From the NCBI GenBank assembly GCA_046581755.1, contig JAYGFR010000103.1, positions 16,869 through 80,868 on the forward strand: a stretch of 64,000 bases of DNA, given 5' to 3'. The translations under genes and the position numbers were made by a program. Under the pieces are notes generated by a model, which searched no databases, was not told where the DNA came from, and saw nothing but the letters and a program-made list of their open reading frames with translations. Shown here one piece after another: positions 9,121 through 60,333 of this stretch (the first letter of the stretch is position 1; every line of letters starts with the position of its first letter). This DNA is from Nitrospinota bacterium. Lineage in GTDB: Bacteria; UBA8248.

Positions 9121-9129
9121 GATTTCGAT

Positions 9130-9336: not shown

Positions 9337-9530
9337 TAAGGGTTTCCTTGGGGGCGGGTCTTTTTCGTTATTCCGAGCGCTAGCGAGAAATCTTCGAGGA
9401 GGAAAGTTTGCGGGACACCGCCCCAGAAGATTCTTCCCTCCGCTCCGCTGAGTTCAGAATGACGCAATAACTTCTACCGATTTTCCAAACTGAGATACAG
9501 CCAATTTCAATCGCCTATAATCACCATTTT

Positions 9531-9794: not shown

Positions 9795-9808
9795 GATGGG
9801 GTCTTGGC

Positions 9809-35229: not shown

Positions 35230-35295
35230 CCCCGCTGCCGATCGGATACCGCTAGCCGGCTCCCCCGGGGGGGCCGGCTATTTTTTTCGGGCCCT

Positions 35296-43034: not shown

Positions 43035-43078
43035 GGGGCGGCGCATTTCTTTCGGCCTCATAGCGAACGGAGAAAATC

Positions 43079-43477
43079 ATGTTCAACAAGGTGCACCACA
43101 TCGGCATCGCGGTGAAGGACATGGACGGGGCCATCGCCCTCTACAAGGGCGCGGGGGCGAAGCTGCTCGGACGCGAGTCCTCCAAGGACGGCAACGTGGA
43201 CCTCGCCATGCTCGATCTGGGCGGGGACCTGATCGAACCCCTCTCCCCCATTCGGGGAGAATCGGAAATCTCGAAATTCATCGAGCGCCACGAGGAGGGC
43301 GTCCACCACGTGGCCTATGAGGTGGACGACATCAAGGCCGAGATGGCCCGCCTGAAGGCGGAAGGGTTCAAGCTGATCGACGAGGTTCCCCGGCCCGGAT
43401 TCATGGGCCACATCATCGCCTTCATCGAACCCCAAAGCACGATGGGCACCCTCTGGGAACTGGTCGAGAAGGAATAG
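43079..43477 (+). CDS. mce: methylmalonyl-CoA epimerase (VOC family)
   Basis: The sequence reads MFNKVHHIGIAVKDMDGAIALYKGAGAKLL...GVHHVAYEVDDIKAEMARLKAEGFKLIDEVPRPG. Confidence 0.85.
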   Translation: MFNKVHHIGIAVKDMDGAIALYKGAGAKLLGRESSKDGNVDLAMLDLGGDLIEPLSPIRGESEISKFIERHEEGVHHVAYEVDDIKAEMARLKAEGFKLIDEVPRPGFMGHIIAFIEPQSTMGTLWELVEKE

Positions 43478-48313: not shown

Positions 48314-49288
48314 TCACACCTTCAAAACGATTTTTCCCGCCACCTTGCCCGTCATCAGAACCTCGTGGGCGCGCGCCGCCTCGGCGAGGGGGATCTCCTC
48401 GCCGACGAGGGCGCGGACCTTTCCCTGCTCGAGGAGGTAGTTCACCTGACGGATCATGTCGGGGAACACGGCGTCCGTATTAAAGAGGCTCATCCCGCGC
48501 ACGTCGATGTCCTTCGAGTAGAAGGGCGGGTAGGTGACCGAACCCACCATGCTCTTTCCAGTCCCGGCGCCCAGAAGCACCATCGTCCCGCCCTTTTTGA
48601 GCGCCCGGCAGCTTTCGTCGAAATTCTCGGCCGAGACCATCTCGATGACCACGTCCACCCCCACCCCGCCACTCTCGGCGACGCAGCGGTCGGCGAAATC
48701 TTCCTCGCGGTAGTTCACCACCACGTCCGCGCCCAGCGACTCGGCAACGGCGGCCTTTTCCTTTGAACTGACCGTCGTGATGACGCGGGCGCCGGCCGCC
48801 TTGGCGATCTGAATTGCCATCGACCCCACGCCCCCCGCGCCGGCGTGGACGAGTATTGTCTGGCCGGGCTGAATCCCAGCCTTGACGACAACGGCGTTAA
48901 AAGCCGTATAGAGCACCACCGGGAACGAGGCGCACTCCTCGAACGAGAGGTTCGAGGGAATCCGGGCGGTCCGCAGGCCGTTCAGCGCGGTCTTTTCCGC
49001 ATAGCTTCCGGTCATGGCCGCCCCGAACACGCGGTCCCCCGCCCCGAACCCCTCAACACCCTCGCCCACCTCGATCACCTCGCCAGCCGCGTCGATTCCG
49101 GGCGTCCAGGGAAGTTTGAGGGATTTCGAGAGCGGATGAGCGCCCGAGCGGAAGGTGGTGTCCACCGGATTCACCCCGGCCGCCCGCACCTGGATAAGCA
49201 GCTGACCCGGACCGGCCGAAGGCTCCTCCGCCTCCTCGAATTTCATCACTTCGGGTCCGCCGAATTCGTGAACCTGAATCGCTTTCAT
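48314..49288 (-). CDS. zinc-binding NADPH:quinone oxidoreductase (MDR family), third paralog
   Basis: The sequence reads MKAIQVHEFGGPEVMKFEEAEEPSAGPGQLLIQVRAAGVNPVDTTFRSG...ILVHAGAGGVGSMAIQIA. Confidence 0.85.
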   Translation of the reverse strand: MKAIQVHEFGGPEVMKFEEAEEPSAGPGQLLIQVRAAGVNPVDTTFRSGAHPLSKSLKLPWTPGIDAAGEVIEVGEGVEGFGAGDRVFGAAMTGSYAEKTALNGLRTARIPSNLSFEECASFPVVLYTAFNAVVVKAGIQPGQTILVHAGAGGVGSMAIQIAKAAGARVITTVSSKEKAAVAESLGADVVVNYREEDFADRCVAESGGVGVDVVIEMVSAENFDESCRALKKGGTMVLLGAGTGKSMVGSVTYPPFYSKDIDVRGMSLFNTDAVFPDMIRQVNYLLEQGKVRALVGEEIPLAEAARAHEVLMTGKVAGKIVLKV

Positions 49289-49493
49289 GCCGCCTCCTCC
49301 CGGAATGGCCCCGTAAACGCGAGGAAGTCCATTCTAAAAACAGAGTGAAATATCCGTTGAAATGGAAGGCGCTCCAACAGCGGCGCCACGGGCCCGGAGC
49401 CCTTTGTTTATTTGCGATCAGCGAGGATCAACCCTTAGCACACTACCGCCGGGCTGCCCACCCGATCCGGGCCAAACTTCGAACTCTTGATCT

Positions 49494-49521
49494 TGACATT
49501 CCGCTCCGGCGGGCGATAATG
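49494..49521 (+). promoter_or_regulatory. candidate sigma70-type promoter for the TAXI-TRAP operon
   Basis: A TTGACA hexamer at 49494-49499 is followed by GATAAT at 49515-49520 after a 15-16 nt spacer. About 165 nt of 5' UTR lies between it and the ATG at 49689. Confidence 0.4.
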
Positions 49522-49688
49522 GCTGACATAATGCACACATGAAGGAAACGGTTTGGAATAATCCGATTTTCACCGGATCGTCTCTGTTGCGTTTTGGTTC
49601 CACCTTCGCCGGTCTGCCGCCCATTGGGAATCCAATCAGCGGACAGAGTTGATCAGCCGGCAATTCTTTTATCGGGAGGAGTTTCCGC

Positions 49689-50705
49689 ATGAAAAGAACA
49701 ACGACTCTGCTGATCGCGGCCGCCGTGGCCGCCGCGTTCGCCTCGGCACCGGCCATGGCGGCGGAGCGCTACCGCTTCGGCGGCGGCCCCTCGGGCGGCG
49801 CCTGGCACCCCTCCATCAGCGCCGGCACCCAGCTTCTCAACCGCAAAATTGGCAAAAAATTCTACTTCCAGTACTCCCCCTCGGCGGGTTCGGTCGCCAA
49901 CGTGCGCCGGGTGAGCCTGGGCGAGTTCGCCACCGCATGGGGCCACGTGGGCCAAGTTTACCAGTCATGGACCGGGACCGGCCTCTTCAAGAAGGACGGG
50001 GCCAGCAAGGACTTCCGCATCGTCGCCAACGTGCGGAAACAGTCGCAGGTCATCGCCGTCCTGGCCGACACTCCGGTGAAATCGTTCTCCGACATGGCCG
50101 GAAAAGTCGTGAACCTGCTCAAACAGGGCACGGGAAGCCACGTGAACTGCCGGAACATTTTCTCCACTCTCGGGCTTTATAACAACGCCAACCCCAAGGC
50201 CTCGAAAATCAAGCCGCGCTATCTGGGCTTCTCCGCAGCGGGCCGCGCCCTCGGCGACCGCCAGATCGACGTCTTCTGCTCGGCCGGCGCCCCCTTTACG
50301 ATTCCGGCCGTCACCCGTATTTCCATCCGCAAGGCGGTCCGCTACATCGGCCTGACGGTAGCGGAGCAGAAGAAAATCACGAGTAAATTCAAGTTCTACT
50401 CGCCGGTTACCATTCCCGTGCAGAAGGAAGTGCGGGGAATGAAGTCGCCCGCCCGCTCCATCGCCTACGACGTGTGGTGGATCGCGCATAAGCAGATGTC
50501 CAACGCCGCCGTCTACAATATGCTCAAGGTGATCGCCAGCCCGGCAAACCTCAAGCAGCTCACCAAGACAGCCCGCTACTGGCGGGATCTGGGCGGAAAC
50601 TTCAACTCCCTCATACAGCACAAGATCTGGGTCCATCCCGCCGCCGCGCGCTACTGGAAAGAGCGCGGCGTGAACGTGCCGGCAGAGGTGGTAAAAGGGT
50701 TCTAG
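49689..50705 (+). CDS. TAXI-family TRAP transporter solute-binding subunit
   Basis: It has a signal peptide (MKRTTTLLIAAAVAAAFASAPAMA) followed by GGGPSGGAWHPSISAGTQLL, the TAXI / NMT1-like periplasmic binding fold. Confidence 0.8.
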   Translation: MKRTTTLLIAAAVAAAFASAPAMAAERYRFGGGPSGGAWHPSISAGTQLLNRKIGKKFYFQYSPSAGSVANVRRVSLGEFATAWGHVGQVYQSWTGTGLFKKDGASKDFRIVANVRKQSQVIAVLADTPVKSFSDMAGKVVNLLKQGTGSHVNCRNIFSTLGLYNNANPKASKIKPRYLGFSAAGRALGDRQIDVFCSAGAPFTIPAVTRISIRKAVRYIGLTVAEQKKITSKFKFYSPVTIPVQKEVRGMKSPARSIAYDVWWIAHKQMSNAAVYNMLKVIASPANLKQLTKTARYWRDLGGNFNSLIQHKIWVHPAAARYWKERGVNVPAEVVKGF

Positions 50706-50853
50706 GGAAATCTCTCCCGGCACTCTATGCGCGCCGGTGAACCGGGGCAGGATTCAGGGAAGGGGGGTGGAGACGATCCGCCTCCCTTCCCGCCCCTGAA
50801 ATTCAATCTTTTTTTCATAGCCGCGAAGGCAAATCGCCCTCCAAGGGAATCCC

Positions 50854-53361
50854 ATGCTTCGAAATTTACTCTCCTTTCTCATCAAAATGGGCATCATCGC
50901 CGAGGCCATGGTCAAGCCCCGCGAACTGACCGGGTTCACGCGGGTGCTGGTCGCCGTCATCGCCGTATCGTTCTCCTATTTCTTCATCCATATCTCATTC
51001 TTCGGACCGCCCATTTCCGAGATTTTCAAGGGCACCTACATCCTCGCCACGGCGATCCTTTGCATCCTAATTTACAGGGGCCGCCAGATGCCCATCCGGG
51101 ATGGCTTCTCCTACTTGGACGAGATGTTCATCTTTCTCACCCACGTGACCATGTGCGCCTCCCTCCTGGTGTTGGTCCACTGGGGACTGTTCGATCGGAC
51201 CTTCCTGTGGGACAACTACAAGGGCCCGGGCGCAGCCGCCGCCGCCATCCTGGGGGCGATCCTCGGGGCAATCCTCTACTGGAAAGAGGCGACCCGGGAT
51301 GAAATTTCCGATGCTACTCTCCTCTCGGATTGGCTCTACCTCTTTTCCGCCATAGCGCCCATCGTTTGGTGGGTGGTCGAAAACGTGAATCTGGTCGAGC
51401 GGGTCGGCGGCCCGGTGCCCACCTCGATCGTCGTCTTCGCCGGCCTCCTGGTGGCCGTAAGCTTTGACATCGCCCGGCGTGTCATCGGACCCGTAATCCC
51501 GCTCATCGGCTTTTTCTTTCTGATTTACACTTTCAAGCCCATCGCCCAAATCTCGCCCGGGCTTTTCTTCCACGACGGCTTCGGGCTGGCCCGCGTGATG
51601 GAGTTTCTCATACTCGAGGCGGACGGCATCACCGGCCTCATCGTTGAAGTGTTCGCCACCTACATCGTCATCTTCGTCGTCCTGGGAGCGTTCCTCGAAA
51701 AAACCGGCCTCGGCGCCATTCTCATCGACACCACCTTCCGCCTCACGGGCCAGCGCACCGGGGGGCCGGCGATGACCGCCGTCATCTCGAGCGGCCTGTT
51801 CGGCATGATCTCGGGAAGCGGCGTGGCCAACGTCGTGACGACGGGAACCTTCACCATCCCGCTCATGAAGCGCGTGGGCTACGATTCCGAGTTCGCCGCC
51901 GCCGTCGAGGCGGCCGCCTCGACCGGCGGGGCCTACATGCCCCCGATCATGGCCGGGGCCGCCTTTCTGATCGCCCAGCTCACCGAGACCAGCTATTTCG
52001 AAATCATCAAGATCGCCCTCCTGCCGGCAATCCTCTACTACCTTTCCCTGCTCTACCTGGTGTATATCCGCGCCGTCCGCAGGGGGCTGCTCGGCGTCTC
52101 GGTAGACGAACTTCCCTCGTGGGCAGCCATCCTGCCGCGCATTCATTTCCTGGTGCCCATCCCTTTCATGGTCTACTACCTCATGATCGGTGATTCGGCC
52201 TTTCTCGCGGCCTTCAAGACCATCTGCTTGATCCTCATGATCAAGGCCTCCGATTTACTGAACGGAATCCGGACCCCCTGGTCCGGACGGACCTGGCAGC
52301 CGTTCCTTGGCCTTTCGATCCTCTTTGGGGTACTCGCCTACTATTTCGGGCTCCGGGTGGGCGCGCCGTTTTCCTGGTTCGCCGATAACCTGCGGGGGCT
52401 CAACATAGGCGATGGCATCATCTGGACCGTGGCGGGATACATTGCCCTCAAGATCGGGGAAATCCTCCTGGCCGGATTCCGCAGTCCCCCGGCGGCCGGC
52501 GCCTCTCCCTCGCCGCAGCCGGTCGGGGAAGGCGAGCCGCAGGCCGAATCGGGCGGCGCGCTCTTCTCCAGCCTGGGGGATGCTTTCGTCGAACTGGTCA
52601 AGGTGACCTGGATCTCTCTCGAGTCGGGGGCGCGGAACACCCTCGTCGTCGGGTGCATCGCCTGCGTGCTCGGAATTTTGCTCTCGTGCGCCTCCCAAAG
52701 CGATCTCACGGGGCGGATTTCCATCCTGCTCACCGATTTCAGCTTCGGCCTTTTGCCGCTCACGATCATGTGGGTCATCATCGCGGGCTACGTCGTGGGC
52801 ATGGGTCTCCCCATCACGGCGAGCTATGTCGTACTTGTCATCTTCGGGGTCATCTCCCTGACGAACCTGGGCGTCCCCACCCTCACCGCCCATCTCATCT
52901 GCTTCTGGGTCGCGGTGGTGAGCGCAGTGACGCCCCCGGTGGCGCTGGCGGCCTACGCGGCGAGCGCCATCGCCCTCTCGGACCCGGTGAAAACCGGCTT
53001 CCAGGCGCTCAAGCTGGCTTCGTGGATTTTCATCATGCCCTTCCTGTTCGTCTATACGCCCATCCTTCTCACGGGCACGACGACGCAAGTCACGATAACG
53101 TTTATCGCCTGTTTGCTGGGCATACTCGGCTGGGCTGGATGGCTCGAGGGGTTTTTCCTCAAACCGACGACGGGCACGGAGCGAATGCTTCTCCTCGGAT
53201 CGGCCCTCTGCCTGCTCATGCCCGTGGGGCAATTCGCTGCTTTCGCCTTCTCGCTCAAGGGAACCTTCATCTACCCATCCTACGTCATGGGCGCCCTGCT
53301 GTTGGTGCTGACCTTTATCATGCAGCGCGGACGCGGAGAGGTGGTTTCCCAGACGGCCTGA
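50854..53361 (+). CDS. TRAP transporter fused permease subunit (TAXI-associated)
   Basis: This 835-aa polytopic membrane protein is typical of fused DctQ/DctM-like TAXI-TRAP permeases. Confidence 0.85.
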   Translation: MLRNLLSFLIKMGIIAEAMVKPRELTGFTRVLVAVIAVSFSYFFIHISFFGPPISEIFKGTYILATAILCILIYRGRQMPIRDGFSYLDEMFIFLTHVTMCASLLVLVHWGLFDRTFLWDNYKGPGAAAAAILGAILGAILYWKEATRDEISDATLLSDWLYLFSAIAPIVWWVVENVNLVERVGGPVPTSIVVFAGLLVAVSFDIARRVIGPVIPLIGFFFLIYTFKPIAQISPGLFFHDGFGLARVMEFLILEADGITGLIVEVFATYIVIFVVLGAFLEKTGLGAILIDTTFRLTGQRTGGPAMTAVISSGLFGMISGSGVANVVTTGTFTIPLMKRVGYDSEFAAAVEAAASTGGAYMPPIMAGAAFLIAQLTETSYFEIIKIALLPAILYYLSLLYLVYIRAVRRGLLGVSVDELPSWAAILPRIHFLVPIPFMVYYLMIGDSAFLAAFKTICLILMIKASDLLNGIRTPWSGRTWQPFLGLSILFGVLAYYFGLRVGAPFSWFADNLRGLNIGDGIIWTVAGYIALKIGEILLAGFRSPPAAGASPSPQPVGEGEPQAESGGALFSSLGDAFVELVKVTWISLESGARNTLVVGCIACVLGILLSCASQSDLTGRISILLTDFSFGLLPLTIMWVIIAGYVVGMGLPITASYVVLVIFGVISLTNLGVPTLTAHLICFWVAVVSAVTPPVALAAYAASAIALSDPVKTGFQALKLASWIFIMPFLFVYTPILLTGTTTQVTITFIACLLGILGWAGWLEGFFLKPTTGTERMLLLGSALCLLMPVGQFAAFAFSLKGTFIYPSYVMGALLLVLTFIMQRGRGEVVSQTA

Positions 53362-53382
53362 GCGCACATCAGGAGACCGATC

Positions 53383-54048
53383 ATGACCCCCAAGCCACCT
53401 CCCCTCCGGCGCGTCCAGCACATCGGCATCAAGGTCCACGATCTGGACGAGGCCGAGGCCTTCTACCGGGACGTCTTGGGCTAGCGCGTGTCCGACCGCT
53501 ACGAGCCCGGCGACAATCCGCACAGCCTCTGGGGCATCTGCTTCATGCGGAGCGCGGAGCTTCATCACGAACTCTCCCTCCTCCACTACGTCCCCGAGTC
53601 GGGGCCGTTCGAGAAAATCGATGCCCTGCGCACCCCCGGCGTCGGCCTCCACCACATCGCCTTCGATGCCGGGTCCAAGGAAGCCTTCGAGGCCTGGGAG
53701 GAATACATCCGCTTCCTCGGAATCGAGATCTTCCACGGTCCCCGGGTCCACAGCCCGACCCATCCCGAGGGGGACGGGACCCTGGGCGAGAACCGGGCGT
53801 TCTACTTTCACGACCCTTCCGGGAACGGCATCGAAATTTTCACCGATCTGGCCCCGATGGACGAGGACACGAACCGCGTCAACGAGGCCTGGTTCCGCGA
53901 CCGCCTCGAACGGGACGGCTACGAACGCGGCTCCGCCGATCCGCCGCCCGCCGCCCGCCTGGAAACCCGGCGTATCGAGCATGGCGGGCGCGCACGAAAA
54001 ATTCGGGAACAAAAAATCCTGGTAAATTTCATGGAGACTTTCGAATGA
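53383..54048 (+). pseudogene. VOC (glyoxalase / extradiol dioxygenase) family gene interrupted by an in-frame TAG at 53482-53484
   Basis: An AGGAGA ribosome-binding site precedes ATG 53383. The N-terminal segment MTPKPPPLRRVQHIGIKVHDLDEAEAFYRDVLG is followed by TAG, then in the same frame RVSDRYEPGDNPHSLWGICF...GLHHIAFDAG...NGIEIFTD. The N-terminal part carries the first metal-ligand His of the VOC fold. Confidence 0.7.
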
Positions 54049-55001
54049 CCCACCGCATTGTGGCGGTCGATCCGAGGTGGAAAAACCCCGGCCGCCAGAA
54101 ATTCCTGACCGACCATCTGCCGGATGGATACGAACTGATCATCCCCGAATCCTTCGAGCCTGAAGACCTCCGCCGGGAGCTGGAATCGACCGCCGCCCTC
54201 GTCACCGGCCTTGGCGATATCACCGAGGAGATGATGCGCGCCGCGCCGAACCTCCGCGTGGTCGGCAAGGCGGGAACCGGGGTGGACTCCATCGATGTCG
54301 CCGCGGCGACGGCCATGAAGATTCCGGTGGCGCACACCCCAGGCTGGATGCGCGCGACGCCGGTGGCCGAGCACGCCCTCACCCTTATGCTCATGCTCGC
54401 TCGGAAACCCTGGCTCTGGCGAGGAAAGGAGCGTCCACCCCTGCACACGCAGCTATCGGAGTGCTCGGCCGGGATCGTGGGGCTGGGGAACATCGGCCAG
54501 CGCATCGCCGCCCGCTGCGCCGGGTTTGACATGGAGGTGCTCGCCTATACGAGGACGAAAGGAAAGTTCCAGCCCGAGGGATTTTCGGTCGAGGAGACCG
54601 GCTCGCTCGAAGAACTCCTGGGCCGGGCAGACTACGTCGTCCTCTCCCTCCCCCTCAACGAGGAGACGCGCGGAATCATCGGCGCGGGCGAACTGGGCCT
54701 GATGAAGCCCACGGCGTTCCTCATCAACGTCTCGCGGGGTAGCCACATCGTGACGGACGCCCTCGTCGCCGCTCTCCAAAACGGAGAGATCGCCGGCGCC
54801 GGCCTCGACGTGATCGAGCCCGATCCGCTTCCCGGGGACCATCCCATTCTCGAACTGGATAACGTTGCCATATCGCCCCATTGCGCCGCCCAGACCCAAA
54901 GCACACAGGATCAGAGCTACCGCCTCCTCGCCGAGAGCATCCGCCTCGCGGTCGAGGGCGAGCGCGTCGAAGCCCTCGTCAACCCGGAAATATACGGCTG
55001 A
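54045..55001 (+). CDS. D-isomer-specific 2-hydroxyacid dehydrogenase (PGDH-like)
   Basis: The sequence reads MTHRIVAVDPRW...GIVGLGNIGQRIAARCAGFDMEVLAY...LINVSRGSHIVTDALVAALQNGEIAGAGLDV. Its ATG overlaps the stop of the VOC gene. Confidence 0.85.
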   Translation: MTHRIVAVDPRWKNPGRQKFLTDHLPDGYELIIPESFEPEDLRRELESTAALVTGLGDITEEMMRAAPNLRVVGKAGTGVDSIDVAAATAMKIPVAHTPGWMRATPVAEHALTLMLMLARKPWLWRGKERPPLHTQLSECSAGIVGLGNIGQRIAARCAGFDMEVLAYTRTKGKFQPEGFSVEETGSLEELLGRADYVVLSLPLNEETRGIIGAGELGLMKPTAFLINVSRGSHIVTDALVAALQNGEIAGAGLDVIEPDPLPGDHPILELDNVAISPHCAAQTQSTQDQSYRLLAESIRLAVEGERVEALVNPEIYG

Positions 55002-55164
55002 CCGGCCGCCGCGCGGCGGAGGGCGTCATCTTCCTCGTCAATCCCCGGGCGGGGGGCGGGCCGCCCGACCGGACGCCCCCATTCGCCCGTGCTATAATTT
55101 TCCCACGGGAAAATTTGGCCACCCACCCGTGCCGCCGAGGCACACCCAAGGGAAGGATTTCCTG

Positions 55165-56298
55165 ATGCCGGATGATGTGATCCGCGGGCTTGAAGGCATC
55201 GTCGCCGTGGAGACCTCGATCTGCGACCTGGACGGCGAGGGCGGGCGCCTGGCCTACCGGGGTTACGACGTGCCGGATATGGCCCGGCGGGGCGTGACCT
55301 ACGAGGAGATCGTCTATCTCCTCCTGAACGGCGAGCTTCCGGACCACGCCGCCCTCAAGGCCTTCAGCGCCGAGCTCATCGCCGAGCGAAAGCTCCCCGG
55401 TGATTTGCTGCGCGTGATCAAGCTTATCCCGCCGGCGGCCCACCGCATGGCCGCCCTCCGGGGAGCGGTGGGGATGCTGGGCCTCTACGATCCCGAGGCC
55501 GAGGACACATCCCCAGAAGCGAACCGCCGCAAGGCTGTCCGCCTCATCGCCCGGATGCCGGTCGTCGCGGCGGCCATCCACCGGGCCGGCGAGGGAGAGA
55601 AACCCCTCTCTCCCCGCAAGGGGCTGGGCCATGCCGCGAACTTTCTCCACATGGTCTTCGGCGAAAAACCCCATAAAGCGGACGTAAAGGCCCTCGACGC
55701 CAGCCTCGTCCTCTACGCCGAACACGAGATCAACGCCTCGACCTTCACGGGGCGGGTCGTCGCCTCCACCCTCTCGGACATTTACTCGGCGGTCACGGCG
55801 GCGATCGGCTCCCTCAAGGGACCCCTCCACGGCGGGGCCGGACTCGCCGTCATGGAAACCCTCGAGGAAATTGGCGAGGCCGAAAACGCGGAACCCTTCC
55901 TCGAGAAGGCGCTGGCCGAAAAGCGCCTCCTCATGGGCTTTGGCCACCGCGTCTACTACCGGAGCGGCGATCCGCGCGCCGCCGTTCTGATGGGCATCGC
56001 CGAGGAGACCTGCCGCCGCCGGGGGGCGGACAAATGGTTCGACATCGCGCGCGCCCTCGACCAGGGCGTGCAGAGCCGCAAGGGGATCATCCCGAACGTC
56101 GATTTCTATTCGGCTCCGCTCTGGCGCGGCCTCGGGCTGCCCACCGGCCTGTTTGTGCCCATCATCGCGATCTCCCGCGTGGCGGGATGGTGCGCCAACA
56201 TCCTCGAACAACAGGGCGATAACCGCCTCATCCGGCCCCGCGCCCGCTACACGGGCGCACCGAAGCGGGCCTATAAATCCCTCCGGGGAAGGCGCTAG
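55165..56298 (+). CDS. citrate synthase family protein (citrate / 2-methylcitrate synthase-like)
   Basis: The sequence reads MPDDVIRGLEGIVAVETSICDLDGEGGRLAYRGYDV...LYAEHEINASTF...GFGHRVYYRSGDPRA...DFYSAPL. Confidence 0.85.
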   Translation: MPDDVIRGLEGIVAVETSICDLDGEGGRLAYRGYDVPDMARRGVTYEEIVYLLLNGELPDHAALKAFSAELIAERKLPGDLLRVIKLIPPAAHRMAALRGAVGMLGLYDPEAEDTSPEANRRKAVRLIARMPVVAAAIHRAGEGEKPLSPRKGLGHAANFLHMVFGEKPHKADVKALDASLVLYAEHEINASTFTGRVVASTLSDIYSAVTAAIGSLKGPLHGGAGLAVMETLEEIGEAENAEPFLEKALAEKRLLMGFGHRVYYRSGDPRAAVLMGIAEETCRRRGADKWFDIARALDQGVQSRKGIIPNVDFYSAPLWRGLGLPTGLFVPIIAISRVAGWCANILEQQGDNRLIRPRARYTGAPKRAYKSLRGRR

Positions 56299-56302
56299 GG
56301 CG

Positions 56303-58228
56303 ATGGCCAAAAGTCTCGCGCAACTGCTCATCGACGAGCACCTGGTCTCGGGCGATGGCGGCCGCGTCGGGGCCGAGATTGAGATTCGCGCGGATCAGGT
56401 GCTTTTGCAGGACGCCTCGGGCCCGATGGCCCTGCTCCAGTTCGAGGCGATGGGGATGACGCGCGTCGCCCAGAAGACAGCCGTCATGTACGCTGACCAC
56501 CAGACCCTTCAGATGGACTATCTCCACACCGAGGGGCACCGTTTTCTGCTCGGTTTTTGCCAGAAATACGGCATCCACTTCTCCAAACCCGGCAACGGAA
56601 TCTGCCACAACGTTCATCTGGAAACCTATGCCGTCCCGGGCGAGAGCCTGGCCGGCACCGACAGCCACACCCCCCAGGCCGGCGCGGCCGGAATGCTCGC
56701 CATCGGCGCGGGGGGGATCGACGTGGCCGTCGCCATGGGCGGGGGCACCCTCATTCTCCCCCGCCCAGAAATCATCGAGGTCCACCTGAGTGGAAAGCTC
56801 GGCCCCTGGCGCTCGGCGAAGGACGTCATCCTCGAACTTCTGCGGCGCCTCACGGGCCAGGGCGGGGTGGGCAAACTCTTCGAGTACACCGGCCCCGGGG
56901 TGGAGACGCTGAGCGTGCCCGAGCGCTCGACCATCGCCAACATGGGGACCGAGCTGGGCCTGACCAGCTCTCTTTTTCCGAGCGACGAGCGGACGTGGGA
57001 GTTTTTCGGGCGGATGAACCGGCCCGGCGACTGGCGGGCGCTCTCGGCGGACCGGGACGCCGCCTACGACGGCCGGATCGAACTCGACCTCTCCCGCATC
57101 GAGCCGCTCATCGCCCTGCCCTCGAACCCGGACAAGGTGGTCCCGGTGAGCGAGGTGGCCGGAACCCCGATCGAGCAGGTCATCGCCGGAAGCTGCACGA
57201 ACGGGTCCTACACCGACATCGCCTCCTTCGCCCAAATCATGCGGGGGCGCAAGGTGGCCCCCGGGGTGGATGCCATCGTTTTTCCGGGAAGCCGCCAGGC
57301 GTTCGAGGAGTTGGCCCGCGAGGGGCACATCGCCGACCTGCTCGCCGCCGGGGTCCTCGTGTCGGAGGCCACCTGCGGCTCCTGCCCCGGCTACGGCCAC
57401 ATCCCCGCGCCGGGGACGAAATCCCTCCGCACCTTCAGCCGGAATTTCAAGGGCCGCTCCGGCCTCACGGAGGACGCCGTTTATATATGTGGCACCGAGA
57501 CGGCCGCCCTCTCCGCCATCCATGGGGTCATCACCGCCCCCCCCGGCGACTTGAAACCGCCCGAGGTTCTTCTCCCCCACCGGTTCGCCGCGGACGGGGC
57601 GGGAATCGTGCCGCCCTCGGCCGAGCCCGAGCGGATCGAACTCCTCCAGAGCCCCAACATCGTGCCCATCCCGGCGGGAGAGCCCTTCGGGGATGCCTAC
57701 GAGGGAGAGATCCTCATCAAGCTGGGCGATTCGGTCTCGACCGACACCATCATCCCCGCTGGCGTCGAGGCAATCACCTACCGAACGAACGCGCCCGCCC
57801 TTTCGGAGTTCCTCTTCCGGAGGATCGACCCGGAGTTCGCCGGCCGCGCGCGCGCGGCGGGCGGGGGGATCATCCTGGGGGGCGACCTCTACGGCCAGGG
57901 CTCGGCCCGGGAGCAGGCCGCGCTTTGCCCCATGTGCCTGGGCGTGCGGGCCGTGGTGGCGAAGTCCTTCGCCCGGATCCACCGCGCGAACCTGATCAAC
58001 TGGGGCATCCTCCCGCTCGAACTCGCCGACCCCGGCGAATGGGACCGCCTCGAGCAGGGCCACCGCCTCCGCCTCTCCGGCATCCCGGAGGGGCTTTCCC
58101 AAAACCGCCTGGCGGTGGAGAATCGGACCATCGGATCGCGCTTCGAGGTGACGTGCGCGCTCACCGCGCGCGAGCGGAGCATCCTTCTCGCAGGAGGGGT
58201 CCTCGCCCATACCAAAGCCAGGGCTTGA
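56303..58228 (+). CDS. aconitase-family hydro-lyase, fused catalytic + swivel domains (LeuC/LeuD-like fusion)
   Basis: The sequence begins MAKSLAQLLIDEHLVSGDGGRVGAEIEIRADQVLLQDASGPMALLQFEAMG, reminiscent of LeuC/HACN. It contains the three-cysteine cluster region (GSCTNGSYTDI, VSEATCGSCPG) and a C-terminal swivel domain, in an uninterrupted ORF of about 640 aa. Confidence 0.8.
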   Translation: MAKSLAQLLIDEHLVSGDGGRVGAEIEIRADQVLLQDASGPMALLQFEAMGMTRVAQKTAVMYADHQTLQMDYLHTEGHRFLLGFCQKYGIHFSKPGNGICHNVHLETYAVPGESLAGTDSHTPQAGAAGMLAIGAGGIDVAVAMGGGTLILPRPEIIEVHLSGKLGPWRSAKDVILELLRRLTGQGGVGKLFEYTGPGVETLSVPERSTIANMGTELGLTSSLFPSDERTWEFFGRMNRPGDWRALSADRDAAYDGRIELDLSRIEPLIALPSNPDKVVPVSEVAGTPIEQVIAGSCTNGSYTDIASFAQIMRGRKVAPGVDAIVFPGSRQAFEELAREGHIADLLAAGVLVSEATCGSCPGYGHIPAPGTKSLRTFSRNFKGRSGLTEDAVYICGTETAALSAIHGVITAPPGDLKPPEVLLPHRFAADGAGIVPPSAEPERIELLQSPNIVPIPAGEPFGDAYEGEILIKLGDSVSTDTIIPAGVEAITYRTNAPALSEFLFRRIDPEFAGRARAAGGGIILGGDLYGQGSAREQAALCPMCLGVRAVVAKSFARIHRANLINWGILPLELADPGEWDRLEQGHRLRLSGIPEGLSQNRLAVENRTIGSRFEVTCALTARERSILLAGGVLAHTKARA

Positions 58229-58235
58229 AACCGAA

Positions 58236-59414
58236 ATGAGCCAGCGAAAAATTTCAGCCGTTTTCTACCGGGGCGGCACCAGCCGCGCCATCTTTTTCAA
58301 CGCCAAGGACATCACCGAGGACCCGGAGACGCGGACCGCGATATTCCTCCGCGCCATGGGAAGTCCGGACCCCAACGGCCGCCAGCTCGACGGCCTCGGC
58401 GGCGGCATCTCCTCCCTCAGCAAGGCCGCCGTCATCGGCCCCTCCACCCGCCCGGACGCCGACGTGGATTTCACCTTCGCCCAGGTGAGCGTGGATACCC
58501 CCTTCGTGGATTACGGGGGCAACTGCGGAAACATGTCGAGCGCGGTGGGGCTCTTCGCGGTCGAGGAAGGGCTCGTCCCCCCGCCGCCGGACGGGGAGGC
58601 CACCGTCCGCATCCACAACACGAACACCAACAAGATCGTCATCTCCAAATTCCGGGTCGAGGGCGGCATTCCCGCGGTCGAGGGGGACTACGCGCTTCCG
58701 GGCGTGGCCGGAACTGGCTCGCGCATCACGCTCGAATTCACCGATCCCGGAGGCGCCTCGACGGGAAAGCTTCTCCCCACCGGGAGGCGGGTCGATGAAT
58801 TCGATATCGAGGGAATCGGAAGGATCGAGGCCAGCCTCGTCGATGCGGCCACCCCCGCCGTTTTCGTCCGGGCCAAGGACATCGGCCTTTTGGGGACCGA
58901 ATCCCCCGGGGCCATCGACGCCCAGCGGACGATTATGGTGAATCTGGAGCAGATCCGGGCCGAGGCCACTGTCCGGATGGGTATATCGCCCGACACCCGG
59001 GCGGCTTCGGAGTCCTCCCCCCTGGTTCCGAAAATGGCCATAGTCTCGCCCCCGGCGGAATACTTCGACCTCACGGGGGCGCCCGTTCCCGCCGACTCGT
59101 TCGACATCCTGAGCCGGATGCTCTCGATGGGAAAAACCCACCGCGCCTATCCGCTGACGGGGGCGATGTGCCTCGCCGTGGCCGCCCGCATACCGGGCAC
59201 AATTGCGCACGAGGCCGCGCGTCCCGGCGGAGGGGACCTTCGTCTCGGGCACTCGTCCGGGGTCCAACCCATCGGGGCCGTCGTGACCCAGGACCCGGAA
59301 GGGCCCCGGGCCGAGAAGGTCATCGTCTACCGCACCGCCCGCCGCCTGATGGAAGGCTCGGTCCTCATTCCCGCCAGCGTATTTGAGGCTGAGGCGCAAA
59401 CCGCCCCGGCCTAG
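58236..59414 (+). CDS. prpF: PrpF / AcnD-accessory family isomerase (2-methylaconitate cis-trans isomerase-like)
   Basis: The N-terminus MSQRKISAVFYRGGTSRAIFFNAKDI is the characteristic PrpF / DUF453 start. The protein is 392 aa, with the GGNCGNMSSAVG segment. Confidence 0.85.
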   Translation: MSQRKISAVFYRGGTSRAIFFNAKDITEDPETRTAIFLRAMGSPDPNGRQLDGLGGGISSLSKAAVIGPSTRPDADVDFTFAQVSVDTPFVDYGGNCGNMSSAVGLFAVEEGLVPPPPDGEATVRIHNTNTNKIVISKFRVEGGIPAVEGDYALPGVAGTGSRITLEFTDPGGASTGKLLPTGRRVDEFDIEGIGRIEASLVDAATPAVFVRAKDIGLLGTESPGAIDAQRTIMVNLEQIRAEATVRMGISPDTRAASESSPLVPKMAIVSPPAEYFDLTGAPVPADSFDILSRMLSMGKTHRAYPLTGAMCLAVAARIPGTIAHEAARPGGGDLRLGHSSGVQPIGAVVTQDPEGPRAEKVIVYRTARRLMEGSVLIPASVFEAEAQTAPA

Positions 59415-59484
59415 ATTGGCTTCCAGGCGCGCGCCTCGGGCGGAGCGCCCCGGGCGGCCTCCGCCGGCGAAAGAGACCCAAAAA

Positions 59485-60333
59485 GTGGGCAACCAGCCCT
59501 CGATCCAGGAAATTCAGGGATTCTACGATGTGGTGTCCCCCCTCTACCGGGATCTGTGGGCCGGCCACATCCACCATGGCTACTACCCCTCCGGCCGCGA
59601 AACAAAAGAAGAGGCCACCGAGGGCCTCATCCAATTTCTCGCCGACGCCTCCTCCCTGAAACCCGGCGCCAAGGTTCTCGACGTCGGATGCGGAATCGGC
59701 GGAACGTCGATCTGGCTGAGCCAAAATTTCGGCTGCAAGGTGACCGGAATCACCATCAGCCCGGCGCAAAGGAAAATGGCGGAAGAGGCGGCCTCCAGCC
59801 TCGACCGGAAACCCGAATTTCTGCTCATGGACGCCAACCGCATGACCCTGACCGGAACCTTCGACGCGGTTTGGACCGTCGAGGTGCTCGCCCACCTGGG
59901 CGATCACCTGAGTTTTTTCCGAAAGTGCCACGCGCTTTTGAACCCCGGCGGAAGGATTTGCATCGCCGCCTGGCTCAAGGCGGACAATCTGACAGCGCGG
60001 GAGGAGGCGGAGATTATCCGGCCCATCGAGGAGGGAATGTTCTGCGCGCTATCGACCTCCGAAAAATACCTGAAGCTCCTCGATGAATCCCGTTTCAAGC
60101 TGGTGCGCTTCGAGGACATCAGCCCCCGGGTGAAGCAAACATGGGATATCGGCCTGAAAATTATAAGGGATAAGGCCGTGTGGGCGTTCGCCGCCCGCCA
60201 CGGGATGGAATTCCTGAGACACCTCCGGGGATTTCGAAGGATGAAGCGGGGTTTCGAGGAAAAAAAATTCGTCTACGGGATTCTGATCGCCGAAAAAATC
60301 CAGCCGCCGCTCGATCTAATTTCCTCTGATTGA
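59485..60333 (+). CDS. class I SAM-dependent methyltransferase (tocopherol-MT / natural-product-MT-like HHGYY type)
   Basis: A GTG start is proposed. The sequence reads IQEIQGFYDVVSPLYRDLWAGHIHHGYY...VLDVGCGIGGTSIWLSQ...LLNPGGRICIAAW. Confidence 0.75.
   Translation: MGNQPSIQEIQGFYDVVSPLYRDLWAGHIHHGYYPSGRETKEEATEGLIQFLADASSLKPGAKVLDVGCGIGGTSIWLSQNFGCKVTGITISPAQRKMAEEAASSLDRKPEFLLMDANRMTLTGTFDAVWTVEVLAHLGDHLSFFRKCHALLNPGGRICIAAWLKADNLTAREEAEIIRPIEEGMFCALSTSEKYLKLLDESRFKLVRFEDISPRVKQTWDIGLKIIRDKAVWAFAARHGMEFLRHLRGFRRMKRGFEEKKFVYGILIAEKIQPPLDLISSD

What the first reader, a model, noticed from the sequence alone, without database searches (positions are those of the whole stretch)
49494..60333. 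Co-directional operon resembling an AcnD/PrpF-type tricarboxylate pathway variant
Eight genes run on the + strand with short gaps or overlaps:
- a TAXI solute-binding protein;
- an 835-aa fused TRAP permease;
- a VOC protein with an in-frame amber codon;
- a D-2-hydroxyacid dehydrogenase;
- a citrate-synthase-family enzyme;
- an unusually compact (~640 aa) fused aconitase-family protein with a LeuC-like N-terminus;
- a PrpF-family isomerase;
- an HHGYY-type SAM methyltransferase.

The citrate-synthase / Fe-S dehydratase / PrpF trio parallels the AcnD-PrpF branch of the 2-methylcitrate cycle. Here, though, the dehydratase is LeuCD-fusion-like rather than AcnA-like. A TRAP importer, a dehydrogenase and a methyltransferase are attached, and no prpB/prpC lyase partner is present in the window.

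This suggests uptake and conversion of an unidentified organic acid. Tricarboxylates are one guess; the TRAP system suggests some carboxylate.
Basis: partly seen in the sequence, partly recalled or inferred. Interest (0 to 1): 0.55.

Follow-up and report, generated by a model that had tools for sequence, protein, structure and literature searches.

The report
Conserved synthase–aconitase–isomerase organic-acid operon
The eight-gene cluster is real but is three modules, not one unit: a carboxylate importer and dehydrogenase precede a citrate-synthase/aconitase/PrpF-isomerase trio that recurs in several uncultured phyla and may be an undescribed variant of the methylcitrate (propionate) route, with substrate still unproven.

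Summary
Three corrections apply:
- The 641-aa aconitase is not unusual. It passes the curated cut-offs of the known compact "Aquifex-type" aconitate hydratase family.
- The VOC gene is a recent pseudogene. A TAG replaces a Leu/Tyr/Phe/Met codon.
- The methyltransferase is a lineage-specific add-on.

The block is modular:
- TAXI–TRAP–VOC–dehydrogenase occurs only in Nitrospinota and a Tectomicrobia MAG.
- Citrate synthase–aconitase–PrpF is tightly coupled. It recurs in the same order in 35 of the loci fetched, from Nitrospinota, Methylomirabilota/Rokubacteria, Chloroflexi and unclassified MAGs.
- One Nitrospinota subclade deleted citrate synthase and aconitase but kept the importer, dehydrogenases and PrpF.

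The gene order matches canonical prpC–acnD–prpF. However, the PrpF-like protein, the aconitase and the synthase all fail the PrpF, AcnD and PrpC equivalog thresholds. No prpB lies within ±10 kb of any trio locus.

Best reading (confidence about 0.4): a methylcitrate-type branch in which a compact aconitase replaces AcnD. Main rival (about 0.3): a cis/trans-aconitate isomerase module for uptake or synthesis of trans-aconitate.

Verdict: a new variant of a known kind, of moderate interest. The substrate is undetermined.

The parts
49493..49520 (+). sigma-70-like promoter (TTGACA-16-GATAAT) in the divergent intergenic region upstream of the TAXI gene
   Evidence: 11 of 12 consensus matches. Three such sites were found in the region against 1.4 expected. 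This is a consensus match only; no function was shown.
49689..50705 (+). TAXI-family TRAP solute-binding protein (338 aa, with signal-peptide-like N-terminus)
   Evidence: PF16868; TIGR02122 at 145.6 bits against a cut-off of 84.35; only weak similarity (68 bits or less) to solved TAXI proteins, so no ligand can be inferred.
50854..53361 (+). fused TRAP permease (835 aa)
   Evidence: PF06808; TIGR02123 at 491 bits against a cut-off of 320.65. The same 835-aa gene is called in L007 and L001.
53383..54048 (+). VOC/glyoxalase-fold pseudogene, interrupted by TAG at 53482-53484
   Evidence: The TAG replaces L/Y/F/M of intact 210-aa orthologues (L012, L016-23, L095, L005). The same TAG is present in the separately assembled contig L007. 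The gene carries a frameshift in L014 and is missing in L001 and L008-L011.
54045..55001 (+). D-isomer 2-hydroxyacid dehydrogenase (318 aa), paralogue group 'alpha'
   Evidence: PF02826 and PF00389; no NCBIfam equivalog cut-off is met; the nearest solved proteins are glyoxylate reductase, PGDH and McyI; two paralogue groups (alpha and beta) exist in relatives.
55090..55098 (+). extended -10-like element TGCTATAAT, about 75 nt upstream of the citrate-synthase start, in the 163-nt gap
   Evidence: It is conserved as TGCTACAAT at the same distance in L008/L009 although the flanking sequence differs. It is absent in the 66-68% clade, where the dehydrogenase stop codon lies about 25 nt from the CS start. 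Consensus match only.
55165..56298 (+). citrate-synthase-family enzyme (377 aa), candidate citrate/2-methylcitrate synthase
   Evidence: TIGR01800 at 453 bits against 421; all equivalog models are below their cut-offs; scores are nearly equal against Thermus CS (317 bits) and M. tuberculosis PrpC (309 bits). Tyr (as in PrpC) at the E. coli PrpC-197 position and Val (as in CS) at the 324 position.
56303..58228 (+). compact 'Aquifex-type' Fe-S aconitate hydratase (641 aa)
   Evidence: NF005558 at 787.8 bits against 612; TIGR01342 at 764.8 against 719; AcnD model at 139.8 against 1419.85; the three cluster cysteines and the aconitase catalytic and binding residues are conserved; 100% identical to a protein named 'aconitate hydratase [Nitrospinae bacterium]'.
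58236..59414 (+). PrpF-family double-bond isomerase (392 aa)
   Evidence: PF04303 at 378 bits. TIGR02334 at 334.6 against 440.55; OMA tautomerase model at 302 against 440. Mii 319 bits, S. oneidensis PrpF 283 bits. Equivalents of catalytic K73 and C107 are conserved (K63, C97; invariant in alignment A1).
59485..60333 (+). class I SAM methyltransferase (282 aa, HHGYY motif); a lineage-specific addition
   Evidence: generic small-molecule O/N-methyltransferase similarity; the trans-aconitate methyltransferase model scores only 30 bits against 297; the gene follows PrpF only in the window and L007; a 66% homologue sits beside RecD2/MazG genes.

Best explanation
The locus is a mosaic of three modules.

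Module 2 is the core: CS-aconitase-PrpF at 55165-59414. It is most likely a methylcitrate-type branch built like prpC-acnD-prpF. The proposed steps, all inferred by analogy, are:
1. The citrate-synthase-family enzyme condenses propionyl-CoA (and probably also acetyl-CoA) with oxaloacetate.
2. The compact Fe-S aconitase dehydrates the (methyl)citrate by anti-elimination to the 'wrong' aconitate isomer.
3. The PrpF-like isomerase, using its conserved Lys/Cys pair, converts that isomer to the one an aconitase can rehydrate.
4. Cleavage would need a methylisocitrate or isocitrate lyase encoded elsewhere.

Module 1 is TAXI-TRAP plus a D-2-hydroxyacid dehydrogenase; its VOC enzyme is dead in this genome. 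It imports and oxidises an unidentified carboxylate. In some Nitrospinota it is co-transcribed with module 2.

Module 3, the methyltransferase, is a recent unrelated insertion.

Shown here: gene identities, family memberships, conserved catalytic residues, synteny and the pattern of gene loss. Inferred: substrates, reaction order, and any link between modules 1 and 2.
For: - The gene order CS-Acn-PrpF, with 4- and 7-nt gaps, matches the annotated Ralstonia prpB-prpC-acnD-prpF operon.
- The trio recurs in the same order and on the same strand in 35 of the loci fetched, from Nitrospinota, Methylomirabilota/Rokubacteria, Chloroflexi and unclassified MAGs. The divergence of the three proteins is concordant, for example 85/86/80%, 68/69/68% and 57/58/63% identity to the window.
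- The synthase passes the 2-methylcitrate synthase/citrate synthase II subfamily model. It carries the PrpC-type Tyr where three citrate synthases have His.
- The PrpF-like protein keeps the equivalents of K73 and C107. PMC5690661 shows K73 to be essential.
- The PrpF-like protein is closer to canonical PrpF (about 41% identity) than to the presumed B. thuringiensis TbrA-type aconitate isomerase (about 32%).
- Established chemistry: an Fe-S aconitase-type dehydratase acting on 2-methylcitrate yields 4-methyl-cis-aconitate. This must be isomerised before aconitase can rehydrate it (PMC5690661). That is the only known reason to couple an isomerase to a synthase and an aconitase.
- CS and Acn are dispensable, so they are accessory rather than housekeeping. 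They are deleted in a well-supported nested subclade (bootstrap 97.5-100%). Every close Acn orthologue found still sits in the trio context.
- A methylcitrate pathway has been predicted in cultured Nitrospina through prpBCD (PMC8026999). An AcnD/PrpF-like replacement of PrpD in other lineages therefore has precedent.
- In several Rokubacteria loci a Liv-type ABC transporter follows the trio.
Against: - No PrpB/ICL-family, PrpD, PrpE-specific or PrpR gene lies in the window or within ±10 kb of any trio locus.
- The PrpF-like protein fails the PrpF equivalog model (335 bits against 440.55), whereas Ralstonia PrpF scores 770.
- The aconitase is not AcnD and passes a plain aconitate-hydratase equivalog.
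- The synthase has a CS-type Val at the second specificity position. It matches citrate synthases at 3 of 6 discriminating columns.
- PrpF is retained with TRAP and the dehydrogenases where CS and Acn are deleted. A strictly AcnD-type role does not explain this.
- The PrpF-like proteins of trio loci from different phyla are not resolved as one clade (bootstrap 9.5%).
Confidence: 0.4

Rival explanations
1. Aconitate cis/trans isomerase module. The PrpF-like enzyme interconverts trans- and cis-aconitate. With the TAXI-TRAP importer it assimilates external trans-aconitate or a related tricarboxylate (a TarA/TarB-like logic), and the local aconitase feeds the TCA cycle. Alternatively, CS + Acn + isomerase form a self-contained three-step route from acetyl-CoA and oxaloacetate to trans-aconitate for export.
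For: - S. oneidensis PrpF isomerises aconitate. PrpF-superfamily TarA and TbrA are aconitate isomerases paired with transporters (PMC5690661, PMC11495376).
- This reading explains why PrpF stays with TRAP when CS and Acn are lost.
- It explains why no lyase is linked.
- The aconitase passes the aconitate-hydratase equivalog with citrate-binding residues intact.
- Relatives of the PrpF-like protein sit beside TctC tricarboxylate receptors, TcuA and AcnA.
- A DMT/EamA transporter gene lies just downstream of PrpF in most Nitrospinota loci, and a DMT gene follows the presumed tbrA on a B. thuringiensis plasmid.
- CS + aconitase + isomerase is the set used to engineer trans-aconitate production in E. 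coli (PMC12492653, abstract seen).
Against: - The assimilation version leaves the tightly coupled synthase unexplained.
- The production version has no natural precedent as an operon and no obvious benefit in these lineages.
- Identity to the presumed TbrA is only about 32%, against about 41% to canonical PrpF.
- The DMT gene is convergent rather than co-transcribed, and it is absent at this position in the window and in Rokubacteria loci.
- PrpB-like lyases and PrpD-like genes are frequent next to related PrpF-like genes.
Confidence: 0.3
2. Housekeeping pair plus repair enzyme. CS and the compact aconitase are ordinary TCA (or reverse oxidative TCA) enzymes. PrpF merely salvages trans-aconitate formed spontaneously from cis-aconitate. 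The upstream TRAP genes are neighbours by descent only.
For: - The aconitase meets the aconitate-hydratase equivalog.
- The synthase is as similar to Thermus citrate synthase as to PrpC.
- In the window lineage an extended -10-like element and a 163-nt gap separate the trio from the upstream genes.
Against: - CS and Acn are deleted without a detectable relocated copy in the form-B Nitrospinota and in a Tectomicrobia MAG.
- TCA enzymes are rarely locked to a PrpF gene across phyla.
- In the 66-68% Nitrospinota clade the dehydrogenase stop codon is only about 25 nt from the CS start, which implies one transcript.
Confidence: 0.15
3. A different alkyl-citrate or branched-acid pathway. The dehydrogenase oxidises the imported D-2-hydroxy acid to a 2-oxo acid. 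The CS-family enzyme condenses that 2-oxo acid with an acyl-CoA. Aconitase and PrpF then rearrange the product, in a logic like the Mii / dimethylmaleate hydratase / dimethylmalate lyase route.
For: - The best solved match of the PrpF-like protein is 3-methylitaconate isomerase, Mii (319 bits).
- An oxidoreductase gene immediately precedes CS both in Nitrospinota (2-hydroxyacid dehydrogenase) and in many Rokubacteria loci (an ORF cluster that looked by eye like an LLM-class F420-dependent oxidoreductase; it was not scanned against a family library).
- Related PrpF-like genes are linked to LeuCD-like hydratases and ICL-family lyases.
Against: - The CS family is not known to accept 2-oxo acids other than oxaloacetate (from my own knowledge).
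- The aconitase retains all citrate-binding residues.
- No lyase or mutase partner is present.
Confidence: 0.1

Closest known systems
AcnD-dependent 2-methylcitrate cycle operon (prpB-prpC-acnD-prpF of Shewanella, Vibrio, Ralstonia)
   Same: - Same order: CS-family synthase, then Fe-S aconitase-superfamily dehydratase, then PrpF-family isomerase.
- The Lys/Cys catalytic pair of PrpF is conserved.
- The synthase passes the shared TIGR01800 subfamily model.
   Different: - The dehydratase is a 641-aa Aquifex-type aconitase, not the roughly 860-aa AcnA-like AcnD (140 bits against a 1420 cut-off).
- The isomerase lies outside the PrpF equivalog (335 bits against 440.55; Ralstonia PrpF scores 770).
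- No prpB or prpR is linked.
- A TAXI-TRAP importer and a 2-hydroxyacid dehydrogenase are attached in Nitrospinota.
Trans-aconitate systems TarA/TarB (Bacillus velezensis) and TbrA/TbrB (B. thuringiensis)
   Same: A PrpF-superfamily isomerase is genetically coupled to a carboxylate transporter. The product, cis-aconitate, is handed to aconitase (PMC11495376).
   Different: - Identity is only about 32% to the B. thuringiensis plasmid homologue that I presume to be TbrA.
- The transporter types differ: DMT in B. thuringiensis, TAXI-TRAP here.
- Those systems carry no dedicated citrate synthase or aconitase.
Compact 'Aquifex-type' aconitate hydratase family (NF005558 / TIGR01342)
   Same: The window's aconitase is a full member. 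It passes both curated cut-offs, and the Fe-S cysteines and catalytic residues are conserved.
   Different: In the trio context it is fixed between a synthase and a PrpF gene and can be lost with the synthase. That behaviour is not what a sole TCA aconitase would show.
Mii / dimethylmaleate hydratase / dimethylmalate lyase steps of nicotinate fermentation (Eubacterium barkeri)
   Same: A PrpF-family isomerase works with an aconitase-superfamily hydratase. Mii is the best solved match (319 bits).
   Different: There is no mutase or ICL-family lyase here. The hydratase is a true aconitase type rather than a LeuCD-like DmdAB. The pathway details come from my own knowledge and were not tested.
Uncharacterised TctC-TcuA-LeuCD-PrpF-like and AcnA-PrpF-like clusters of Proteobacteria (for example Hydrogenophaga plasmid pBPS33-1, Paracoccus albicereus)
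   Same: - The PrpF-like proteins are 52-61% identical and fall in the same well-supported superclade (bootstrap 100%).
- Each is immediately adjacent to an aconitase-superfamily hydro-lyase and to tricarboxylate-related genes.
   Different: - The partners are AcnA or split LeuCD-like enzymes, TcuA-like flavoproteins, PrpB-like lyases and TTT receptors.
- A citrate synthase, a compact aconitase and TRAP are not the partners there.

Membership tests
AcnD/PrpF branch of the 2-methylcitrate cycle | Gene order: synthase, then Fe-S dehydratase, then PrpF, in one operon | tested here: met
   Window gaps are 4 and 7 nt. The order is the same as Ralstonia prpC-acnD-prpF.
AcnD/PrpF branch of the 2-methylcitrate cycle | The dehydratase is AcnD (TIGR02333 equivalog) | tested here: not met
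   139.8 bits against a cut-off of 1419.85.
AcnD/PrpF branch of the 2-methylcitrate cycle | The isomerase is PrpF (TIGR02334 equivalog) | tested here: not met
   334.6 bits against 440.55. The positive control, Ralstonia PrpF, scores 769.8. All relatives in the superclade score 309-378.
AcnD/PrpF branch of the 2-methylcitrate cycle | Catalytic Lys73 and Cys107 of PrpF | tested here: met
   K63 (in SSLSK) and C97 (in GNCGN) align to K73 and C107 of 2pvz. Both are invariant in 25 homologues.
AcnD/PrpF branch of the 2-methylcitrate cycle | The synthase is a 2-methylcitrate synthase | tested here: inconclusive
   The TIGR01800 subfamily model is passed, but the PrpC equivalogs are not (414 against 479; 350 against 550). 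There is a PrpC-like Tyr at E. coli PrpC position 197 and a CS-like Val at 324; 2 of 6 discriminating columns are PrpC-like. The importance of positions 197 and 324 is recalled from memory of the Salmonella PrpC structure paper.
AcnD/PrpF branch of the 2-methylcitrate cycle | Linked methylisocitrate lyase PrpB | tested here: not met
   tblastn with two PrpB-like queries gave no hit in the window (E up to 1e-3) or within ±10 kb of the trio loci (E up to 1e-5). A copy elsewhere in the genome could not be tested.
Aquifex-type aconitate hydratase (NF005558 / TIGR01342) | Score above the curated cut-offs over the full length | tested here: met
   787.8 against 612 and 764.8 against 719.15, covering residues 1-640.
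Aquifex-type aconitate hydratase (NF005558 / TIGR01342) | Fe-S ligands and aconitase active-site residues | tested here: met
   Equivalents of Q72, D100, H101, H147, D165, S166, H167, N258, E262, C358, C421, C424, R447, R452, S642 and R644 are conserved. Three substitutions occur: N170Q, N446S and S643A. The R580 equivalent was assigned by eye in the 'TYRT' stretch.
LeuCD / homoaconitase biosynthetic isomerases | Score above a LeuC/HacA/LeuD family cut-off | tested here: not met
   The best is NF001614 at 346.8 against 385. All other LeuC, HacA and LeuD models are also below their cut-offs.
PrpF-superfamily aconitate isomerase (TarA/TbrA type) | Close sequence relationship to a characterised aconitate isomerase | tested here: inconclusive
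   About 32% identity to the B. thuringiensis plasmid PrpF-like gene that is followed by a DMT transporter; I presume this is tbrA-tbrB. No TarA sequence was available.
PrpF-superfamily aconitate isomerase (TarA/TbrA type) | cis/trans-aconitate isomerase activity | not testable with these tools
   Needs an enzyme assay.
TAXI-TRAP transporter | A TAXI binding protein plus a fused DctQM permease, adjacent to each other | tested here: met
   TIGR02122 at 145.6 against 84.35; TIGR02123 at 491 against 320.65; the genes are 148 nt apart.
Trans-aconitate methyltransferase (Tam) | Match to the Tam equivalog NF002463 | tested here: not met
   30.2 bits against 297. The nearest solved proteins are sugar O-, N- and C-methyltransferases.

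The most novel reading that the evidence does not exclude
The CS / compact aconitase / PrpF-like trio is a previously unrecognised, self-contained tricarboxylate pathway shared by major uncultured phyla (Nitrospinota, Methylomirabilota, Chloroflexota). Two forms are possible. In one, a single compact aconitase performs both dehydration and rehydration in a lyase-unlinked methylcitrate route. In the other, the trio makes or salvages trans-aconitate-type compounds de novo. In marine Nitrospinota the pathway would be wired to a TAXI-TRAP importer for an environmental organic acid.
Probability: 0.25. Interest if true: 0.6.

Novelty: new variant of a known kind. Interest (0 to 1): 0.45.

Why it matters
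Nitrospinota are major marine nitrite oxidisers. Methylomirabilota/Rokubacteria are abundant in soil and groundwater. Neither group is well cultured.

- A conserved operon that couples a synthase, a compact aconitase and a PrpF-like isomerase would change how propionyl-CoA or tricarboxylate metabolism is scored in their genomes. KEGG-style annotation would currently read it as TCA enzymes plus an orphan prpF.
- It extends a recurring rule seen here. PrpF-like isomerases are recruited next to three different lineages of aconitase-superfamily hydro-lyases: AcnA, split LeuCD-like enzymes and the compact type.
- The attached TAXI-TRAP importer points to organic-acid use by organisms usually treated as autotrophs.
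- The PrpF-like superclade (309-378 bits on the PrpF model) has no curated equivalog and no characterised member.

Tried and rejected
- **AcuI / acrylate-to-propionyl-CoA idea for the upstream zinc-ADH and CoA-transferase.** Rejected. The ADH is PIG3-type (269 bits) and scores only 83 bits against 440 on the AcuI model. The CoA-transferase matches no equivalog.
- **Methyltransferase as a Tam-like trans-aconitate methyltransferase.** Rejected. It scores 30 bits against 297, and a homologue lies in an unrelated context.
- **Riboswitch or leader RNA upstream of the TAXI gene or of CS.** No Rfam hit at E up to 0.1. The 5' UTR fold has z = -1.7, which is not significant.
- **Amber codon as recoding.** Rejected. 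Orthologues have L/Y/F/M at that position, and the gene is independently frameshifted or lost in sister lineages.
- **'Form B replaced CS-Acn by a new dehydrogenase duplicate.'** Revised. The second dehydrogenase (beta) is an old paralogue. It also sits directly upstream of CS in L094, and it is the only copy in the 66-68% clade. Form B is therefore a deletion of CS-Acn.
- **Monophyly of all trio-linked PrpF-like proteins.** Suggested by a single NJ tree but not supported by bootstrap (9.5%). Only the superclade and the Nitrospinota group are robust.
- **Ligand inference for the TAXI protein, the dehydrogenase and the VOC from solved structures.** Similarities are too weak or too generic.
- **Exact-match lookup of the window's PrpF.** Nothing found.
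- **Literature searches for a described CS-aconitase-PrpF cluster or a PrpF-TRAP link.** Nothing directly matching was found.
- **Neighbours of the trio in Rokubacteria.** The ORFs were clustered. From their sequences by eye they resemble an LLM-type oxidoreductase, a ThDP enzyme, an acyltransferase and Liv-type ABC transporter proteins. They gave no pathway clue.

Full report
**1. Observation**

The window has about 65% G+C. Third-position GC picks out one coding frame per gene.

Eight + strand genes occupy 49689-60333:
- TAXI binding protein, 49689-50705.
- 835-aa fused TRAP permease, 50854-53361.
- VOC gene, 53383-54048, with an in-frame TAG at 53482-53484.
- D-2-hydroxyacid dehydrogenase, 54045-55001, overlapping the VOC stop by 4 nt.
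- Citrate-synthase family, 55165-56298.
- 641-aa aconitase, 56303-58228.
- PrpF family, 58236-59414.
- Class I methyltransferase carrying HHGYY, 59485-60333.

The flanks are as follows:
- Upstream, on the minus strand: a PIG3-type zinc-ADH, a family III CoA-transferase, an FrsA-like hydrolase and an EamA transporter.
- Downstream: a VOC gene on the minus strand, an α/β-hydrolase and tandem MBL-fold genes.

The rest of the ORFs that I scanned are ordinary chromosomal genes such as carB, mfd, surA, DAHP synthase and pdxA. No tRNA or Rfam element was found.

The aconitase is 100% identical to a protein named 'aconitate hydratase [Nitrospinae bacterium]'. The source is therefore an uncultured Nitrospinota genome.

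**2. Corrections to the description**

The aconitase is not an oddity.
- It passes the equivalog NF005558 (788 bits against 612) and TIGR01342, the 'Aquifex-type' aconitase model (765 against 719).
- Every LeuC, HacA and LeuD model is below its cut-off, and AcnD scores 140 against 1420.
- Its best solved relative is mitochondrial aconitase.
- The three cluster cysteines and the catalytic and carboxylate-binding residues are conserved.

The VOC gene is a pseudogene.
- The TAG replaces L/Y/F/M of intact 210-aa orthologues.
- The same TAG occurs in the separately assembled contig L007.
- Sister lineages carry a frameshift (L014) or have lost the gene.

The PrpF-family protein has these scores:
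- 335 bits on the PrpF equivalog (cut-off 440.55) and 302 bits on the oxalomesaconate tautomerase model (cut-off 440).
- Its best solved matches are Mii (319 bits) and S. oneidensis PrpF (283 bits).
- The catalytic Lys and Cys are conserved.

**3. Synteny: the block is modular**

I looked up the contigs that encode PrpF and aconitase homologues. I also scanned one genome per species with a PrpF alignment. All 93 loci held at that point were then compared with the window's proteins by tblastn.

Three layers appear.

(a) The seven-gene array TAXI-TRAP-VOC-dehydrogenase-CS-Acn-PrpF, together with the same flanks, recurs in Nitrospinota MAGs at 66-86% identity (L008/9, L012, L016-L023, L095). In the 66-68% clade the dehydrogenase stop codon is only about 25 nt from the CS start.

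(b) 'Form B' loci (L001, L003/4, L010/11, L014) have two dehydrogenase paralogues followed directly by PrpF. They have no CS or Acn and no detectable remnant. A Tectomicrobia MAG (L005) also lacks them.

(c) The methyltransferase follows PrpF only in the window and in L007, which is 99-100% identical. A 66% homologue lies beside RecD2 and MazG genes.

The dehydrogenase tree shows two old paralogues, alpha and beta:
- The window keeps only alpha.
- The 66-68% clade keeps only beta.
- Form B keeps both.
- L094 has beta directly upstream of CS.

The ancestral array was probably alpha-beta-CS-Acn-PrpF, with differential loss since.

Bootstrapped NJ trees of PrpF give:
- 100% for (window + L007 + L008 + form B).
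- 97.5% for form B alone.

Form A lineages lie outside that group, so the loss of CS-Acn in form B is derived.

Every aconitase orthologue at 72% identity or above that I could place sits in the form-A context. I therefore found no sign that CS-Acn merely moved elsewhere. MAG incompleteness limits this inference.

**4. The trio outside Nitrospinota**

CS-Acn-PrpF occurs in the same order and on the same strand in 35 of the loci fetched. Seven further loci hold only part of the trio, most of them cut by contig ends.

Beyond Nitrospinota, these loci come from many Methylomirabilota/Rokubacteria MAGs, a Chloroflexi genome (L030) and unclassified MAGs (L013, L024).
- In L013 and L024 a toxin-antitoxin pair is inserted between Acn and PrpF.
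- The three proteins diverge in step, for example 85/86/80%, 68/69/68% and 57/58/63% identity to the window. This is what a co-inherited unit would show.
- These loci carry no TRAP, VOC or 2-hydroxyacid dehydrogenase genes.
- Their neighbours vary. By eye from the ORF translations they resemble an LLM-type oxidoreductase, a ThDP enzyme and a Liv-type ABC transporter.
- No PrpB/ICL-family, PrpD, TcuA or TctC gene lies within ±10 kb of any trio locus.

**5. Relatives of the PrpF-like protein**

Proteins 52-61% identical to it form one superclade with the trio-linked ones. That superclade has 100% bootstrap support and excludes canonical PrpF, Mii and YbhH.

All members tested score 309-378 bits on the PrpF model. 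A genuine Ralstonia PrpF scores 770.

Their genomic partners are telling:
- AcnA-type aconitases with PrpB-like lyases and GntR regulators (Paracoccus, Roseicyclus).
- AcnA plus TctC receptors (Pseudoroseomonas, a betaproteobacterium).
- TcuA-like flavoproteins with PEP-mutase/ICL-family lyases and MmgE/PrpD proteins (Alphaproteobacteria, Binataceae and others).
- On a Hydrogenophaga plasmid, TctC-TcuA-LeuC-LeuD-TctC-PrpF-like.

This isomerase family is therefore repeatedly placed next to an aconitase-superfamily hydro-lyase of three different lineages, together with tricarboxylate-related genes.

A SAR11 study independently proposed methylcitrate-like substrates for TTT-prpD-prpF islands (PMC11796062).

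**6. Mechanism**

The established precedent is the AcnD-dependent methylcitrate cycle (PMC5690661):
1. AcnD dehydrates 2-methylcitrate to 4-methyl-cis-aconitate.
2. PrpF, whose Lys73 is essential, isomerises it to 2-methyl-cis-aconitate.
3. Aconitase rehydrates that product.
4. PrpB cleaves the resulting 2-methylisocitrate.

An annotated Ralstonia operon has the order prpB-prpC-acnD-prpF. The window's trio copies the last three positions, with a compact aconitase in the place of AcnD.

The synthase gives mixed signals:
- It passes the 2-methylcitrate synthase/citrate synthase II subfamily model.
- It is equally similar to Thermus CS and to M. tuberculosis PrpC.
- Position 197 of E. coli PrpC is a Tyr and position 324 is a Leu. 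I recalled from the Salmonella PrpC structure paper that these two positions govern specificity.
- At position 197, three PrpCs have Tyr, three citrate synthases have His, and all trio synthases have Tyr.
- At position 324, the trio synthases have the CS-type Val.

The signature is mixed, and a bifunctional enzyme would fit it.

I rank the methylcitrate-type reading first (0.4). It is the only known chemistry that needs an isomerase between a synthase and an aconitase. CS and Acn also behave as accessory genes. A methylcitrate pathway has already been predicted in Nitrospina through prpBCD (PMC8026999).

Its weak points are:
- No lyase is linked.
- Three equivalog tests fail.
- PrpF is retained with TRAP and the dehydrogenases after CS-Acn loss.

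**7. Rivals**

(i) An aconitate cis/trans isomerase module (0.3).
- It explains the retention of PrpF with an importer, as in TarA/TarB (PMC11495376).
- It explains the missing lyase and the tricarboxylate-flavoured neighbours of relatives.
- Its assimilation form leaves the synthase unexplained.
- Its production form has no natural precedent.
- Identity to the presumed TbrA is only about 32%.

(ii) Housekeeping TCA enzymes plus a repair isomerase (0.15). The loss pattern argues against it.

(iii) Another alkyl-citrate or branched-acid route fed by the dehydrogenase (0.1). This is speculative.

**8. Upstream module and methyltransferase**

The ligand of the TAXI protein and the substrates of the dehydrogenase and the VOC cannot be inferred. 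Their similarities are as follows:
- The TAXI protein scores 68 bits or less against solved TAXI proteins.
- The dehydrogenase resembles glyoxylate reductase, PGDH and McyI about equally.
- The VOC resembles extradiol dioxygenase and methylmalonyl-CoA epimerase folds only weakly.

In the window lineage a 163-nt gap precedes the synthase. It holds an extended -10-like TGCTATAAT, conserved as TGCTACAAT in L008. The trio and the methyltransferase may therefore also be transcribed on their own.

The methyltransferase belongs to a widespread family that one source labels 'tocopherol O-methyltransferase'. It shows no Tam-like signal.

**9. Novelty and verdict**

I found no paper that describes a citrate-synthase / compact-aconitase / PrpF operon or a PrpF-TAXI-TRAP link.

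All parts belong to known families. What is new is the combination, its spread across phyla, and the uncharacterised PrpF-like superclade. I classify it as a new variant of a known kind, of moderate interest (0.45).

**10. Limits**

- Trees are NJ on tblastn-derived sequences.
- Gene presence was scored by tblastn with at least 50% query coverage.
- MAGs are incomplete, and whole genomes could not be searched.
- Three points rest on my own memory rather than on tool results: the specificity positions of PrpC, the nicotinate pathway, and the use of ICL as a methylisocitrate lyase in M. tuberculosis.

Noticed in passing
window 53383-54048; L014 2400-3004; L001, L008-L011: The VOC gene of the operon is decaying in one Nitrospinota sublineage. 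It has a nonsense TAG in the window and L007, a frameshift in L014, and is deleted in L001 and L008-L011. It is intact (210 aa) in the 66-68% clade, L095 and L005.
   Followed up: yes
window 54045-55001; L094 2-871; L001 7989-9828: Two old paralogue groups of the 2-hydroxyacid dehydrogenase (alpha and beta) are retained differentially. The window has alpha only, the 66-68% clade has beta only, and form B has both. In L094 beta lies directly upstream of the citrate synthase.
   Followed up: yes
window 55090-55098: An extended -10-like TGCTATAAT lies about 75 nt upstream of the citrate-synthase start. It is conserved as TGCTACAAT in L008/L009 despite divergent flanks, which suggests a possible internal promoter.
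   Followed up: partly
window 37799-38770 and 38776-39741 (minus strand): Tandem PIG3/zinc-ADH paralogues, 44-46% identical to the ADH at 48314-49288 that diverges from the operon.
   Followed up: no
window 62226-63047 and 63125-63937: Tandem MBL-fold paralogues (62% identical). Related Nitrospinota loci have two or three copies, followed there by two acetyl/propionyl-CoA-synthetase-like genes.
   Followed up: no
window 43064-43477: A methylmalonyl-CoA-epimerase-like VOC protein scores 114.3 bits, just under the curated cut-off of 114.95. It hints at a methylmalonyl-CoA route for propionyl-CoA in the same genome.
   Followed up: no
L013 11087-11744 (and L024): An HTH_3 / Gp49 (HigB-like) toxin-antitoxin pair and small ORFs are inserted between the aconitase and PrpF genes of an otherwise intact trio.
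   Followed up: no
L057 984-3310 (Ca. Sulfotelmatobacter MAG): The citrate-synthase homologue is followed directly by the PrpF-like gene, with no room for an aconitase between them.
   Followed up: no
L097 1595-8161 (Hydrogenophaga sp. BPS33 plasmid pBPS33-1): An annotated cluster TctC-TcuA-LeuC-LeuD-TctC-PrpF-like. It looks like an uncharacterised tricarballylate-type catabolic operon in which a PrpF-like isomerase partners a split LeuCD-type hydratase.
   Followed up: partly
window 8001-10000 and 34001-36000: Two stretches of lower G+C (0.55-0.58 against about 0.65). The second holds an HTH_3 regulator gene at 34432-35229. They may be islands.
   Followed up: no
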